24,000 nt of DNA from Tissierella praeacuta (GTDB lineage: Bacteria; Bacillota; Clostridia; Tissierellales; Tissierellaceae). Of the stretch, positions 19,236 to 22,119 are shown in pieces. The notes beneath the pieces are model-generated. The model had not been told where the DNA came from. It made no database searches and saw only the letters and a list, made by a program, of their open reading frames with translations. The stretch is taken from assembly GCF_040396155.1 (NCBI RefSeq), contig NZ_JBEBOY010000001.1, positions 243,208 through 267,207 on the forward strand, written 5' to 3'. Position 1 is the stretch's first letter, and the number at the start of each line of letters is the position of its first letter. Made by a program: the position numbers and the translations under genes.

Positions 19236-19805
19236 TTAATCTTTGTTAATGATTTTCCCTAGAATCAACATCAAACTTACTATAAAAATTGATACAGCTA
19301 TAATTAATGCTATTTCTTTAAAATTCAATACTAATAAGGCTATAGTAATTATTATCTCTATAATAAGAATGATACTTGTCCTTTTTTTATATATAGCCCT
19401 TTCCTCTTTATCTAAAGGCTTATTGCGATCTTCTACAGGTGCTAAAAACCAGATTATAATTCCACCTACTTCTGTTAAGCCTAAGATTACCACATCTGTC
19501 TCTGGAATAATTTTTATCCCTAATAATACTACTAGAATTAGAACTATAGAAAACAAATAACATCTAACTTCACTTTTAGCATGGTATCCTCCTCCATAGG
19601 TTCTAAGTGGAGTATATACTATCATAAATAAAATGCTTTCCCATACTGCTCTAAACATAAATCCTATTAGGATTGTTGTTGTGATGTTTAGTAATATTAG
19701 AAGTCCTTGATGTAATCCATAGGCATAAATCTGTCTATCCTCATCTTTTATTAGCTCATTAACAATAAAGTAGTTTGTTATCTTCTCAATCATATTATTA
19801 GCCAT
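19236..19805 (-). CDS. agrB: AgrB-type membrane endopeptidase (AgrD-processing enzyme)
   Basis: 189 aa, polytopic. It carries the AgrB catalytic signature LRTYGGGYHAKSEVRCY (R-x3-GG-x-HA ... C; compare S. aureus RRHAHGAHAPSSFWCY). Its start codon overlaps the stop of the upstream AgrD ORF (TAATG). Confidence 0.9.
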   Translation of the reverse strand: MANNMIEKITNYFIVNELIKDEDRQIYAYGLHQGLLILLNITTTILIGFMFRAVWESILFMIVYTPLRTYGGGYHAKSEVRCYLFSIVLILVVLLGIKIIPETDVVILGLTEVGGIIIWFLAPVEDRNKPLDKEERAIYKKRTSIILIIEIIITIALLVLNFKEIALIIAVSIFIVSLMLILGKIINKD

Positions 19806-19957
19806 TAATTTTTACGAAGTTTTTCTGCACCTTTTGGTAATTCAGGCTGATAAGCAAGATACATACATGTTGTATTTACATTCATGGATGTTACCATCAA
19901 TGCTAAACTTGCAAGAACTCCACTAAACCTTAAAATAACTTTCTTCAACCGAATCAT
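19805..19957 (-). CDS. agrD: AgrD-type autoinducing-peptide precursor (50 aa from ATG 19957; 47 aa if TTG 19948 is used)
   Basis: Not in the ORF track. Translation is MIRLKKVILRFSGVLASLALMVTSMNVNTTCMYLAYQPELPKGAEKLRKN. It has an amphipathic basic leader, a single Cys followed by four hydrophobic residues, then a charged YQPELPK tail. AAAGGAG SD at 19958-19964. The stop at 19807-19805 shares its last A with the agrB ATG. Confidence 0.82.
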   Translation of the reverse strand: MIRLKKVILRFSGVLASLALMVTSMNVNTTCMYLAYQPELPKGAEKLRKN

Positions 19958-19982
19958 CTCCTTTGTTATTTTTTGTATATTC

Positions 19983-20051
19983 ATTGTACAATAAGAAATA
20001 ATAGATCTTTGGGAATTTGTTGAAACTTATATATATTTTTGTTGAAACTTA
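19983..20051 (-). promoter_or_regulatory. Activator-dependent promoter of agrD-agrB with a tandem LytTR-type direct-repeat operator
   Basis: Two identical 14-bp repeats at 20016-20029 and 20038-20051 (plus TTTGTTGAAACTTA; minus TAAGTTTCAACAAA), 22 bp start-to-start. A -10 TACAAT (19988-19983) lies 27 nt downstream of the proximal repeat. The -35 is poor (CAAAGA), as expected for an activator-dependent promoter. Confidence 0.6.
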
Positions 20052-20081
20052 CAATTTTTGTATATTTATTACTAAAATATT

Positions 20082-20102
20082 AAAGGACTTTGATTTCTCA
20101 AA
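20082..20102. repeat. Left copy of a 21-bp perfect direct repeat (AAAGGACTTTGATTTCTCAAA), a degenerate copy of the fabF terminator
   Basis: Identical to 22470-22490. Similarity extends imperfectly to about 36 bp. Here the right arm of the hairpin is mutated (CAAAACCCTAA versus CAAAGTCCTTT). It sits 20 nt downstream of the kinase stop. Confidence 0.8.
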
Positions 20103-20121
20103 ACCCTAATTGTCTAATCTA

Positions 20122-21405
20122 TTAGACTCCATACATTAATATATCAACATGAAATCTTTTTTCAGTATGATATACTTTCATATTACCATCATATTTCTTT
20201 AAAATCTTTTCTATATTATTTAATCCTATACCATGATTTTCTTTGTCCTTTTTAGTTGTTTTTATTTTATCTCCATCATGGATAATAGAACCATCAAAAG
20301 AATTATTAATATAAATAAATAGTATGTCATTTTTATACTTAATTCTAATATCAATAATTTTATTACTTTCAACTTTGGAACTAGCTTCTATTGCATTGTC
20401 TAACAAATTCCCTAAAATCACTACTATATCTAATGGCAAAATATTTAATTTAGATGGGATTTTTAGTTCTAGTGTTACTGAAATTCCCTTTGATTCTGCT
20501 TCCTGTAATTTATAATTTAAAATGCTATCTATCTCTATATTACCTGTTCTGGATAATTGTTCCTTTTCATAGAGGCTATCATTTATTTGCAGAATATAAT
20601 CAATGGATTTTTCTCTTCCTCCATTTTCTATATATCCTTTTAAAGCAAGTAAATAATTCTTCATATCATGACGTAAAGATTTTATATTTTCATAAGAACT
20701 ATTTATAATTTCGAGTTGTCTTTGATAATATTTATTTTGTTCTTCTAATGCTAATTTCTCCATTTTATCTTTAAATGCCTTACTTAAAGTATCATATAAG
20801 TAGAAAACAATTATATTTATTAAAAATAATATAATGATGCAACCTACAGTTTTATATATATTTAAGTTGAAATTTTGTAAAAGAGTCAAGATGATACATA
20901 AGCTCCCTAATGGTATTAAAAATATAGATAATCAATAGATATTTGGAATATCTATTCCTTTCTTTATATTTCTATATCCTCTCATTATTAATGCAATCAT
21001 GTATGAAATTATATTTATAGCAATCATTCCGATAATTGAAGAATATAGTGGATTACTGCTAAGACCATTAGTATAAACAAATCCCGATAATAAAACGATT
21101 ATACTCTCTATAGGCATTAAAATCATATATATAGTCATAATGGATATAATTCTATTTTTTATAGATGATTTATAATTAAATGTTAAAGCAAAATATAAGC
21201 ATATATTACTTATCAATGTGACTATGGGAATATTAATAGCTAAATATATAAAACTAATGACAACGAAATAAAGTATATAAGAAAAAAATTCTGTTTTTTT
21301 ATTTGTATCGCTGGTATCAAAAAATACATCCATAAATTTGTATGTAGTATAAGTTCTAAAAATACTGGTTATTAAATAAACATAATCATAAATATTTAAA
21401 TTCAT
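20122..21405 (-). pseudogene. agrC: AgrC-like (HPK10-type) membrane histidine kinase interrupted by one in-frame TGA
   Basis: Track fragments 20932-21405 (157 aa, polytopic sensor domain) and 20122-20889 (255 aa) are in the same frame. The second fragment carries the H-box SLRHDMKNYL, N-box LGNLLDNAIEAS and G-box ENHGIGLNNIEK. The fragments are separated only by TGA at 20932-20934 plus 14 sense codons (...DIPNIY*LSIFLIPLGSLCIILTLLQNF...). The reconstructed length of about 427 aa equals a normal AgrC. The ATG of the sensor fragment overlaps the regulator stop (ATGA). Confidence 0.8.
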
Positions 21406-22119
21406 ATTCTACCCCTTTCCAATTCTAATTGTAGTTCTCTTATTTTCTTTCTATTTGCTTGACTAATGGGTAGAACTACATTATTTGACATAGTAACCTG
21501 ATGATATTCAAGTTTAACAATATAATTATAGTTTACTAAATAGGATTTGTGAATCTGGATAAATTTAAATTTATTTAAATATTCATATATATCTTTTAAT
21601 CTTCCATAAAATACTTCTGATCCATTTACAGTATGTATTATAACTTTCCTATTTCTACTTTCAAAATACATAATGTCTTTTATTAGCAAATTGTATGTTG
21701 TATGCCCAATTTTATACCGAAAAACCTTTTCATCTTTTTGTATAATCCTCAAAGCAGTATCAAGAGCTTTTTGTATTTTATCATAATTAAAAGGTTTTAT
21801 AATAAAATCTAAAGGTCTTACCTTAAAAAGCTCCATTGCATAAGTCTCTTTCCCCGAAATATATAATTTGAGTAGTTTCGTTTAACATCTTATCTCTAAT
21901 TACTTGTCCTACCTCCACGCCATTCATTTCCTTTAGTTCAATATCAAGAAAAATAATATCATAATAATTGTCTTTAGATAAATATGAACATAATTCTTCC
22001 CCAGAATAAAAAATATCTATTTGTAGTTTCTTTGAAAACCCCTTCTCAAGCATATCTAAAATTTCTTCTAATTGATTACATATTGAACTTTCATCATCGC
22101 ATATGGCTATTCTTAGCAC
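21402..22119 (-). pseudogene. agrA: AgrA-like LytTR-family response regulator split by a frameshift
   Basis: The receiver fragment is 21823-22119. It has a GTG start after an AGGTGAT SD, CDDE acidic residues and a phospho-acceptor context IIFLDIELKEMNG. The LytTR DNA-binding fragment is 21402-21836 (FIQIHKSYLVNYNYI). The frames differ by +1. In the second frame the sequence continues ...LYISGKETYAMELFKVRPLDFIIKP. The shift therefore maps to the ATTATATATTT tract at about 21855-21868. Confidence 0.8.

What the first reader, a model, noticed from the sequence alone, without database searches (positions are those of the whole stretch)
19236..22119. Asymmetric decay: signal production looks intact while both sensing components carry independent lesions
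agrD, agrB, their coupling, their SD and the tandem operator are all intact. The kinase (nonsense) and the regulator (frameshift) each carry a different inactivating mutation. If the lesions are real, the cell is predicted to be signal-blind. Because the agrDB promoter appears activator-dependent (poor -35, LytTR boxes), it would also be stuck at basal signal output. This pattern resembles agr-defective variants that arise in other Firmicutes under selection against costly quorum responses. Two hits in the sensing arm and none in the synthesis arm is a testable population-genetic signature.
Basis: inference. Interest (0 to 1): 0.65.

Follow-up and report, generated by a model that had tools for sequence, protein, structure and literature searches.

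The report
Broken quorum-sensing receptor pair in Tissierella
A Tissierella genome carries an agr-type peptide quorum-sensing locus whose signal-making genes are intact. Its sensor kinase has a stop codon and its regulator has a 2-base deletion. This is a real but ordinary kind of gene loss, already well documented in Staphylococcus aureus.

Summary
On the minus strand, 22119..19236 encodes LytTR regulator, AgrC-type kinase, terminator, two LytTR boxes, agrD and agrB. This is the agrACDB order of Clostridioides difficile 027.

- **Kinase lesion:** TGG became TGA at Trp158, a residue conserved in all 11 homologues aligned.
- **Regulator lesion:** 2 bases were lost from a (TA)4 run. The receiver domain is now out of frame with the LytTR domain.
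- **Lesions look real:** Independent Logan assemblies reproduce both at 100% identity. The stop appears in two sequencing runs and the frameshift in one. Every other long ORF checked in the window is full length.
- **Synthesis arm:** agrD, agrB and the operator are intact.

agrD is 47 aa and starts at TTG 19948; the 59-aa ATG lies inside the -10. The -10 carries a window-specific T-to-C change. A small gene upstream of the regulator is also decayed.

The "asymmetric decay" signature is not statistically supported. The sensing genes make up 74% of the locus, so two of two hits there has P about 0.55. Substitution counts suggest the lesions are recent. A sister lineage (T. praeacuta-like) carries an independent (TA) slip in the kinase in five samples, which hints at recurrent sensor loss. 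Interest is low to moderate.

The parts
21402..22119 (-). agrA-type response regulator (receiver + LytTR domains), now a pseudogene. A 2-nt deletion in a TA run (21859..21865) splits it into a 98-aa receiver fragment (22119..21823) and a 144-aa LytTR fragment (21836..21402).
   Evidence: Pfam Response_reg and LytTR on separate ORFs. Frames. Alignment to five intact 239-241 aa orthologues. Same frameshift in Logan contig L004.
20122..21405 (-). agrC-type sensor histidine kinase, 427 codons, now a pseudogene. An in-frame TGA at 20934..20932 replaces Trp158 at the start of the sixth of about seven hydrophobic segments. It lies upstream of the phospho-accepting His246 and the ATPase domain.
   Evidence: Read-through translation. 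W158 present in 11 of 11 homologues; H246, the N-box and the G-box all lie downstream. TGG in five orthologous DNAs. HATPase_c_5 on the C-terminal ORF only. Stop reproduced in L001 and L026.
20084..20107 (-). Terminator-like hairpin with a T-rich tail between the kinase stop and the agrD operator. It suggests that regulator-kinase and agrD-agrB are separate transcription units.
   Evidence: Terminator scan: 2 sites found against 0.3 expected. Hairpin present in six of nine aligned relatives.
20016..20051 (-). Tandem LytTR-type operator: two exact TAAGTTTCAACAAA repeats (20051..20038 and 20029..20016) with a 22-bp period. The proximal copy ends 27 nt upstream of the -10.
   Evidence: Only exact copies in the window. 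Only close-matching pair at 20-23 bp spacing. Conserved in all related loci, with three copies in L008.
19983..19988 (-). Candidate -10 hexamer of the agrDB promoter. It is TACAAT here, TATAAT in seven of eight relatives and CATAAT in L002. The -35 position reads CAAAGA, which matches 2 of 6 consensus bases.
   Evidence: Alignment of nine loci. Direct reading of the sequence. Function is inferred, not shown.
19805..19948 (-). agrD, autoinducing peptide precursor, 47 aa from a TTG start with AAAGGAG 9 nt upstream. The predicted ring is Cys28-Met-Tyr-Leu-Ala32, followed by YQPELP. Intact.
   Evidence: TIGR04223 at 45.1 bits against a cut-off of 19. The start position is conserved, with ATG there in L013 and TTG in T. 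carlieri. A 47-aa product is called in L008, L021 and L024.
19236..19805 (-). agrB, the membrane peptidase that processes AgrD. It is 189 aa from the ATG that overlaps the agrD stop (TAATG), or 185 aa from the conserved Met at 19793. The GGGYHAKSEVRC motif holds the His and Cys. Intact.
   Evidence: PF04647 at 151 bits over profile positions 2-182 of 185. Same length as orthologues. Start-site comparison.
22207..22383 (-). Remnant of a 60-aa single-pass membrane protein gene that lies about 85 nt upstream of the regulator in several relatives. Here it carries a 3-nt deletion, TGG to TAA, and two 1-nt deletions. Coordinates are approximate. T. carlieri has no such gene at this position, so it may not belong to the agr system.
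   Evidence: tblastn matches only in pieces and in different frames; DNA alignment to L003, L008 and L002. Gene calls in relatives. Absent from this position in T. carlieri.

Best explanation
This is a chromosomal agr-type peptide quorum-sensing locus of a Tissierella species, lying between fabF and the poly(A) polymerase/CCA-adding enzyme family gene.

Intact relatives have the following layout. A regulator-kinase unit (LytTR regulator, then a multi-pass AgrC-type kinase, with overlapping stop and start, ATGA) is followed by a terminator. Next come two 14-bp LytTR boxes 22 bp apart, a promoter with a good -10 and a poor -35, then agrD (47 aa) and agrB. The inferred mechanism is standard. AgrB cuts and cyclises AgrD into a thiolactone peptide with the ring CMYLA. 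The kinase senses the peptide and phosphorylates the regulator. The regulator binds the boxes and raises agrDB transcription, giving positive feedback.

In this genome two real and evolutionarily recent mutations have opened the loop.
- A TGG-to-TGA change truncates the kinase before its last two membrane segments, its phospho-accepting His and its ATPase domain.
- A 2-nt slip in a (TA)4 run separates the regulator's receiver domain from its DNA-binding domain. It also ends translation about 420 nt before the kinase start.

The predicted state is a signal-blind cell that makes the peptide only at the basal rate of the unactivated promoter.

Shown: the lesions, their reproducibility, the intact agrD, agrB and operator, and intact orthologous loci in related lineages. 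Inferred: the peptide chemistry, activator dependence of the promoter, and the phenotype. Whether the loss was selected (saving the cost of the response, or exploiting responders) or simply tolerated cannot be decided from this locus.
For: - Domain content and order.
- Trp158 conserved in 11 of 11 homologues, with His246 and the ATPase motifs downstream.
- TGG and the (TA)4 run present in orthologous DNAs.
- Lesions reproduced at 100% identity in Logan assemblies of two runs for the stop and one run for the frameshift.
- All other checked genes of the window are full length, and 12 other TA runs of at least 8 bases are present in it. This argues against systematic sequencing error and for locus-specific loss. 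Two random lesions both landing in 2.0 of about 21 kb of coding sequence has P about 0.009.
- Boxes are unique in the window and conserved. A terminator lies between the units.
- Synonymous/non-synonymous counts on the window's branch are 13/11 for the regulator and 8/6 for the kinase. They are 11/11 for agrB, 36/27 for fabF and 12/6 for acpP. Most divergence therefore predates the loss of constraint.
- Orthologous loci are fully intact in T. carlieri (at least 23 contigs) and a T. praeacuta-like lineage, and intact apart from an N-gap in MAG CTOTU49745. The sensing pair is also intact in T. pigra and strain MB52-C2.
- Precedent: in about 40,000 S. aureus genomes more than 5% carry agr frameshifts, most different ones in agrC, and 91 operons carry two (PMC8768832).
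Against: - No reads were inspected. The Logan assemblies may come from the same project as the deposited genome, so they are independent assemblies but perhaps not independent samples of the organism.
- No intact allele of the same species was found, so the ancestral state is inferred from lineages that are 93-94% identical in DNA.
- Only 24 kb of the genome is visible. A second agr or LytTR system elsewhere could sense the peptide.
- The promoter's dependence on the regulator is inferred from sequence only.
- TGA is a leaky stop, and near-cognate Trp insertion would restore the wild-type kinase, so the kinase allele alone might be hypomorphic rather than null.
Confidence: 0.8

Rival explanations
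1. Adaptive signal blindness. Loss of the sensing pair was favoured by selection because it saves the cost of the quorum response while the cell still benefits from responders, as proposed for agr-defective S. aureus. The bias toward sensing genes would then be a real signature.
For: - A sister T. praeacuta-like lineage carries an independent kinase frameshift, (TA)5 to (TA)4 at codon 184. Its regulator, agrD and agrB are intact. It occurs in five separate assemblies or samples.
- No disabling point lesion was seen in agrD or agrB in any lineage examined.
- The AIP ring CMYLA is identical across the window, T. praeacuta-like and T. pigra lineages, so a blind strain would live among cells that use the same signal.
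- Precedent in S. aureus (PMC8768832).
Against: - Three of three point lesions in the sensing genes has P about 0.41 given their 74% share of the target.
- The second lesion in the window is expected under relaxed constraint after the first.
- The five samples with the sister frameshift share one haplotype, so they count as one event.
- Nothing is known about what the system regulates in Tissierella or what it costs.
Confidence: 0.3
2. Sequencing or assembly artefact. One or both lesions are not in the organism.
For: The frameshift lies in a short TA repeat, a context where some platforms miscall length. The source may be a metagenome-derived assembly, since the Logan contigs are short.
Against: - The stop is a substitution and is reproduced at 100% identity in two sequencing runs.
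- The frameshift is reproduced in one run assembled by a different pipeline.
- Twelve other TA runs of at least 8 bases are present in the window, and all 11 other genes checked are full length.
- Two errors that both disable neighbouring genes of one system is unlikely (P about 0.009).
Confidence: 0.05
3. Reversible switch. TA-repeat slippage in agrA (this genome) and agrC (sister lineage) acts as a low-frequency ON/OFF phase variation of quorum sensing, comparable to the Agr phase variants reported in S. aureus.
For: Both frameshifts found in this clade are losses of one TA unit from (TA)4-5 runs. Repair of mutated agr loci by mechanisms resembling phase variation is documented in S. aureus (PMC6686034).
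Against: - The runs are short, and such runs are common in this AT-rich DNA: 13 of at least 8 bases in 24 kb.
- The tracts are not conserved. L002 interrupts the regulator run with G. The kinase run is lengthened only in the T. praeacuta-like lineage.
- The window also carries a nonsense mutation that slippage cannot revert.
- No ON allele of the same species was found.
Confidence: 0.07
4. Residual or altered function. TGA read-through by Trp-tRNA would restore some kinase. A +1 slip on GGGG, or re-initiation at Met96 (ATG at 21836), would yield a working regulator or a receiver-less, signal-independent LytTR protein. The locus would then be rewired rather than dead.
For: - The lost codon is Trp, the amino acid most often inserted at UGA, so read-through would regenerate the native protein (established knowledge, not tested here).
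- The 144-aa LytTR ORF starts 14 nt before the stop of the receiver fragment and is preceded by GGGGAAAGAG.
Against: - No stimulatory signals for recoding were identified.
- The base after the TGA is T, which is not the leakiest context (knowledge, not tested).
- Binding to tandem boxes normally needs receiver-driven dimerisation (knowledge from AgrA).
- The window's kinase also carries changes at conserved positions, Y376H and S98P.
Confidence: 0.05

Closest known systems
agr-defective variants of Staphylococcus aureus (frameshift and nonsense alleles of agrC and agrA)
   Same: The same four-component system with the same kind of lesion: a premature stop in the kinase and repeat-associated frameshifts. 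The synthesis genes are left untouched. Double-hit operons exist there too: 91 of 2,997 frameshifted operons carry two frameshifts, and agrC has the most distinct frameshifts (PMC8768832). Some alleles revert (PMC6686034).
   Different: - A different class of bacteria (Tissierellia), from what is probably an environmental or gut metagenome rather than clinical isolates.
- Gene order is A-C-D-B in two tandem units, not a single agrBDCA operon.
- No RNAIII-like divergent transcript was identified; Rfam found only a tRNA in the window.
- The slipped repeats are TA dinucleotides, not poly(A) runs.
Clostridioides difficile 027 agr2 locus (agrACDB)
   Same: The same gene order: agrA, agrC, agrD, agrB on one strand (PMC3754575). 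The regulator is a LytTR protein and the kinase is of the AgrC type.
   Different: The C. difficile locus is intact and was suggested to be a single transcript. Here a terminator-like hairpin and a dedicated box-bearing promoter separate agrAC from agrDB, more like the two units predicted for C. acetobutylicum. The sensing genes are pseudogenes here.
agrBD-only loci (C. difficile agr1)
   Same: The functional outcome is the same: a genome that keeps peptide-synthesis genes without an adjacent working cognate kinase and regulator (PMC3754575).
   Different: Those loci lack agrCA altogether. Here the sensing genes are still present and about 96% identical in protein to intact orthologues, so the loss is recent.

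Membership tests
agr-type cyclic-peptide quorum-sensing system | AgrB-family membrane peptidase | tested here: met
   PF04647 at 151 bits against a cut-off of 23, covering profile positions 2-182 of 185. The motif GGGYHAKSEVRC holds a His and a Cys 7 residues apart.
agr-type cyclic-peptide quorum-sensing system | AgrD-family precursor with a Cys that can form a 5-residue ring and a conserved C-terminal Pro-containing tail, encoded next to agrB | tested here: met
   TIGR04223 at 45.1 bits against a cut-off of 19. The sequence reads ...NTTCMYLAYQPELP.... It lies immediately upstream of agrB.
agr-type cyclic-peptide quorum-sensing system | Multi-pass AgrC-type histidine kinase with a GHKL (HATPase_c_5) domain | tested here: met
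   PF14501 at 96 bits on the C-terminal ORF. The 427-codon read-through aligns end to end with intact homologues, some of which their sources name AgrC. It is present only as a pseudogene with a TGA at codon 158.
agr-type cyclic-peptide quorum-sensing system | Response regulator with receiver and LytTR domains | tested here: met
   PF00072 on the 98-aa ORF and PF04397 on the 144-aa ORF. The two are contiguous in 239-241 aa orthologues. It is present only as a frameshifted pseudogene.
agr-type cyclic-peptide quorum-sensing system | Pair of direct repeats about 21-22 bp apart upstream of the autoinduced promoter | tested here: met
   Two exact 14-mers with a 22-bp period, unique in the window and conserved in relatives. 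Binding by the regulator was not tested.
agr-type cyclic-peptide quorum-sensing system | Production of a thiolactone or lactone peptide and autoinduction | not testable with these tools
   This needs mass spectrometry of culture supernatant and reporter assays.
Naturally occurring agr-defective (signal-blind) variant | Disabling mutation in agrC and/or agrA with agrB and agrD intact | tested here: met
   for the lesions. for the intact synthesis genes.
Naturally occurring agr-defective (signal-blind) variant | An intact allele in other members of the same species, so that it is a variant and not a species-wide loss | tested here: inconclusive
   No full-length kinase more than 96% identical, and no AgrB closer than about 94%, was found among cluster members. 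A JGI metagenome scan for the lineage-specific site found nothing. Intact alleles exist only in lineages 93-94% identical in DNA.
Phase-variable (contingency) locus | A long simple-sequence repeat in the coding region, with ON and OFF lengths coexisting | tested here: not met
   The run is only (TA)3-4. Such runs are common in the window. The run is not conserved in L002. No ON allele was found. A non-revertible stop codon is also present.
Recoded gene (UGA as Sec or Trp) | TGA used as a sense codon in the genome, or a recoding signal at the site | tested here: inconclusive
   Of 20 long ORFs in the window, 16 end in TAA, 3 in TAG and 1 in TGA; the single TGA ends the regulator itself. All homologues have an ordinary Trp (TGG) at the site. 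No search for a SECIS element was made.

The most novel reading that the evidence does not exclude
In the Tissierella clade the agr sensing genes may be a recurrent, possibly reversible, target of TA-dinucleotide slippage. One such slip is in agrA in this genome and another is in agrC in a T. praeacuta-like lineage seen in five samples. Populations would then carry a standing mix of signal-blind peptide producers and responders that share one AIP (ring CMYLA). That would be a social polymorphism maintained in anaerobic communities, not a dead end.
Probability: 0.1. Interest if true: 0.55.

Novelty: new member of a known kind. Interest (0 to 1): 0.3.

Why it matters
If the lesions are real, this Tissierella strain is predicted to release a low level of peptide signal that it cannot hear itself. 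That extends the well-known S. aureus pattern of agrC/agrA loss to an uncultured or little-studied anaerobe lineage. It also gives a concrete pair of natural alleles, broken here and intact in sister lineages, for testing what agr controls in Tissierellia. It does not open a new mechanism. The claimed population-genetic signature is not distinguishable from target size with the data at hand.

Tried and rejected
- **Second agr locus on the same contig.** I rejected this. The 185-aa AgrB (P0137) on the 267-kb contig is the same gene with a later start.
- **Search for an intact allele of the same species.**
  - Cluster members of the kinase, AgrB and AgrD gave nothing closer than 96% or about 94%.
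  - A JGI metagenome scan with a lineage-specific pattern spanning the deletion gave 0 hits.
  - The single genome-contig scan returned only two other species.
- **Extra LytTR boxes.** None were found upstream of the regulator or of the downstream secreted-protein gene.
- **RNAIII-like or other known RNA.** Rfam found only a tRNA at 12477..12557.
- **Excess non-synonymous change in the broken genes.** Not seen.
- **TA-run enrichment in the sensing genes.** Three of 13 long runs fall in 8% of the window. This is suggestive at best and I do not rely on it.
- **L025.** This contig carries an AgrB of a further lineage but does not reach the sensing genes.
- **Extended -10.** I considered calling the promoter an extended -10 and dropped the idea. 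The TG directly abuts the hexamer and is not at the canonical -15/-14 position.
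Full report
**What is there**

On the minus strand, 22119..19236 holds four genes in the order regulator, kinase, agrD, agrB.

- The regulator is split into a 98-aa ORF with a receiver domain and a 144-aa ORF with a LytTR domain.
- The kinase is split into a 157-aa hydrophobic ORF and a 255-aa ORF with a GHKL (HATPase_c_5) domain.
- AgrB matches its Pfam family end to end.
- AgrD matches TIGR04223.

Homologues place the window in the genus Tissierella. 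The nearest are a Tissierella sp. MAG, T. pigra, T. praeacuta-like assemblies, T. carlieri and strain MB52-C2. The locus sits at a conserved chromosomal position between fabF and a poly(A) polymerase family gene. It is therefore a vertically inherited core locus, not a mobile island.

**The two lesions**

*Kinase.* The two kinase ORFs are in one frame and are separated by a single TGA at 20934..20932.

- All eleven aligned homologues have Trp at that column. The phospho-accepting His246, the N-box and the G-box all lie downstream.
- Five orthologous DNAs read TGG in otherwise near-identical flanks.
- By my own reading of the hydrophobic segments, the truncated product would keep five membrane segments and nothing else.

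*Regulator.* The two regulator ORFs are in different frames. Orthologues read CAAATTATATATATTTC (one has G in place of the first A of the run). The window reads CAAATTATATATTTC, a loss of one TA unit within 21859..21865. The break falls at the conserved ...IIYISGKETY... strand of the receiver. The N-terminal fragment therefore lacks the conserved Ser/Thr and Lys, and the LytTR domain is out of frame. The regulator's stop normally overlaps the kinase start (ATGA). The frameshift therefore also uncouples kinase translation.

**Are the lesions real?**

- Logan, an independent assembly of public runs, gives contigs 100% identical to the window.
  - These contigs cover the stop codon in two runs, SRR23622341 and SRR23622351.
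  - They cover the frameshift in SRR23622341.
- Elsewhere in the window, TypA, Lon, YsxC, ClpP, trigger factor, DegV, phosphoglucomutase, the poly(A) polymerase family protein and a lipoprotein are full length against family profiles or orthologues.
- FabF and ACP align codon for codon with their orthologues.
- Twelve other TA runs of at least 8 bases are present in the window, and none of the genes checked above is interrupted.
- Two random errors both hitting 2.0 kb out of about 21 kb of coding sequence has a probability near 0.009.

I put about 5% on artefact. I could not inspect reads. The Logan runs may belong to the same project as the deposited genome.

**The production arm and its control region**

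  - The conserved start is a TTG (ATG in one relative) at 19948, 9 nt after AAAGGAG. It gives a 47-aa AgrD, the size called in several relatives.
  - The predicted ring CMYLA is identical in the window, T. praeacuta-like and T. pigra lineages. T. carlieri has CIYLA.
- *agrB start.* agrB follows directly. The TAATG overlap exists here, but it is replaced by a start 12 nt downstream in the T. praeacuta-like lineage. Coupling is plausible, but its exact form is not conserved.
- *Terminator.* A terminator-like hairpin lies between the kinase stop and the boxes.
- *Operator.* The two exact 14-mers TAAGTTTCAACAAA have a 22-bp period. They are unique in the window and conserved.
  - The proximal copy ends 27 nt upstream of the -10, and the -35 position is a poor match (CAAAGA).
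  - This is the anatomy of a LytTR-activated promoter, but activation is inferred.
- *-10.* The window's -10 is TACAAT. Seven of eight relatives have TATAAT. This is a small, window-specific weakening.

**How old is the loss, and is the asymmetry meaningful?**

I polarised substitutions with T. pigra as outgroup and a fully intact T. praeacuta-like locus as sister. Synonymous and non-synonymous changes on the window's branch are:

| Gene | Synonymous | Non-synonymous |
|---|---|---|
| Regulator | 13 | 11 |
| Kinase | 8 | 6 |
| agrB | 11 | 11 |
| fabF | 36 | 27 |
| acpP | 12 | 6 |

The broken genes show no excess of non-synonymous change, so the lesions are recent relative to the roughly 5% DNA divergence from the sister lineage.

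Within the locus, the sensing genes are 2004 of 2706 coding bases. Two of two hits there has P about 0.55, so the pattern is not a signature in itself. After the first hit the loop is open and the second hit costs nothing further.

**A small survey of relatives**

| Lineage | Regulator | Kinase | agrD / agrB |
|---|---|---|---|
| T. carlieri (at least 23 contigs) | intact | intact | intact |
| T. praeacuta-like, lineage A | intact | intact | intact |
| MAG CTOTU49745 | intact | intact apart from an N-gap | intact |
| T. praeacuta-like, lineage B (five assemblies or samples, one haplotype) | intact | frameshift, (TA)5 to (TA)4 at codon 184 | intact; three boxes instead of two |
| T. pigra, a related metagenome scaffold, strain MB52-C2 | intact | intact | partial duplication: a truncated agrB copy, an insert, then a kinase fragment, agrD and a full agrB |

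Counting the window, two of six lineages have point lesions, all in the sensing genes. Three of three events there still has P about 0.41. This hints at recurrent sensor loss, as in S. aureus, but it is not a demonstration.

**Comparison with known systems**

- The composition meets every sequence-level criterion of an agr-type system.
- The gene order is that of the C. difficile 027 agrACDB locus (PMC3754575).
- The two-unit layout resembles the one that paper cites for C. acetobutylicum.
- The state of the locus matches naturally occurring agr-defective S. aureus.
  - More than 5% of about 40,000 genomes carry agr frameshifts.
  - agrC has the most distinct frameshifts.
  - 91 operons carry two frameshifts (PMC8768832).
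  - Some S. aureus alleles revert (PMC6686034).
- I found no paper that analyses agr in Tissierella; three papers hold both terms, each only once and not in title or abstract.

The finding is a new member of a known kind.

**Verdict**

Signal blindness with basal output is the best prediction. The claimed selective signature is not distinguishable from target size. Interest is 0.3.

Noticed in passing
window about 22207..22383 (- strand): A 60-aa single-pass membrane protein gene lies about 85 nt upstream of the regulator in T. pigra and T. praeacuta-like loci. In the window it is a more heavily decayed pseudogene, with a 3-nt deletion, TGG to TAA, and two 1-nt deletions. L002 has ATG to ATA at its start. 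T. carlieri has TraX-family and 153-aa genes at that position instead.
   Followed up: partly
L003 6900..10600; L013 6700..10400; L021 3700..10560: T. pigra, a related metagenome scaffold and Tissierella sp. MB52-C2 carry a partial duplication. The layout is regulator, kinase, agrD and agrB(1-128), then an insert, then kinase(262-427), agrD and full agrB. The insert is 1.5 kb with lipoprotein-like genes in T. pigra. In MB52-C2 it is about 5 kb and includes Mob_Pre and DUF1835 genes. It looks like integration of foreign DNA by recombination through a captured agr fragment.
   Followed up: partly
L008-L012 (kinase codon 184), compared with L005-L007 and L015: A T. praeacuta-like lineage has the kinase frameshifted by loss of one TA from GATATATATATAACT. 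The frameshift is seen in five separate assemblies or samples on one haplotype. Intact alleles about 0.6% different occur in other samples. The frameshifted lineage also has three copies of the 22-bp box unit upstream of agrD.
   Followed up: yes
window 22468..22499 and 20084..20107: Nearly the same hairpin (GGACTTTGA-loop-TCAAAGTCC plus a T tail) follows both fabF and the kinase gene. It could be a reused terminator or a small repeated element. The copy after the kinase has lost its left arm in L008, L014 and L015.
   Followed up: no
L005, L006, L007 (3' ends); L001 and L026 (ends near window 21680); L004 (end at 21713): Three independent metagenome contigs end within 3 nt of the kinase stop. 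Logan contigs from two runs break at almost the same place inside the regulator gene. Both patterns suggest strain-level variation or repeats at these points in the source communities.
   Followed up: no
window 18083..18589 (- strand): A 168-aa predicted secreted protein with no family match lies downstream of agrB here and in T. carlieri (168 aa). T. pigra has 172-aa relatives. The 646-nt gap between it and agrB holds no LytTR boxes. It is a possible but untested agr-linked effector.
   Followed up: partly
window 23738..23740 (fabF start): At the position of the ATG start used by orthologues, fabF has TTG in the window. The ORF can extend 5 codons upstream to another TTG at 23755.
   Followed up: no
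window 20122..21405 (kinase codons 98 and 376): Besides the stop, the window's kinase has lineage-specific changes at conserved positions. These are S98P in a membrane segment and Y376H at a column that is Tyr in at least 90% of the aligned homologues. They may be early signs of relaxed constraint.
   Followed up: partly
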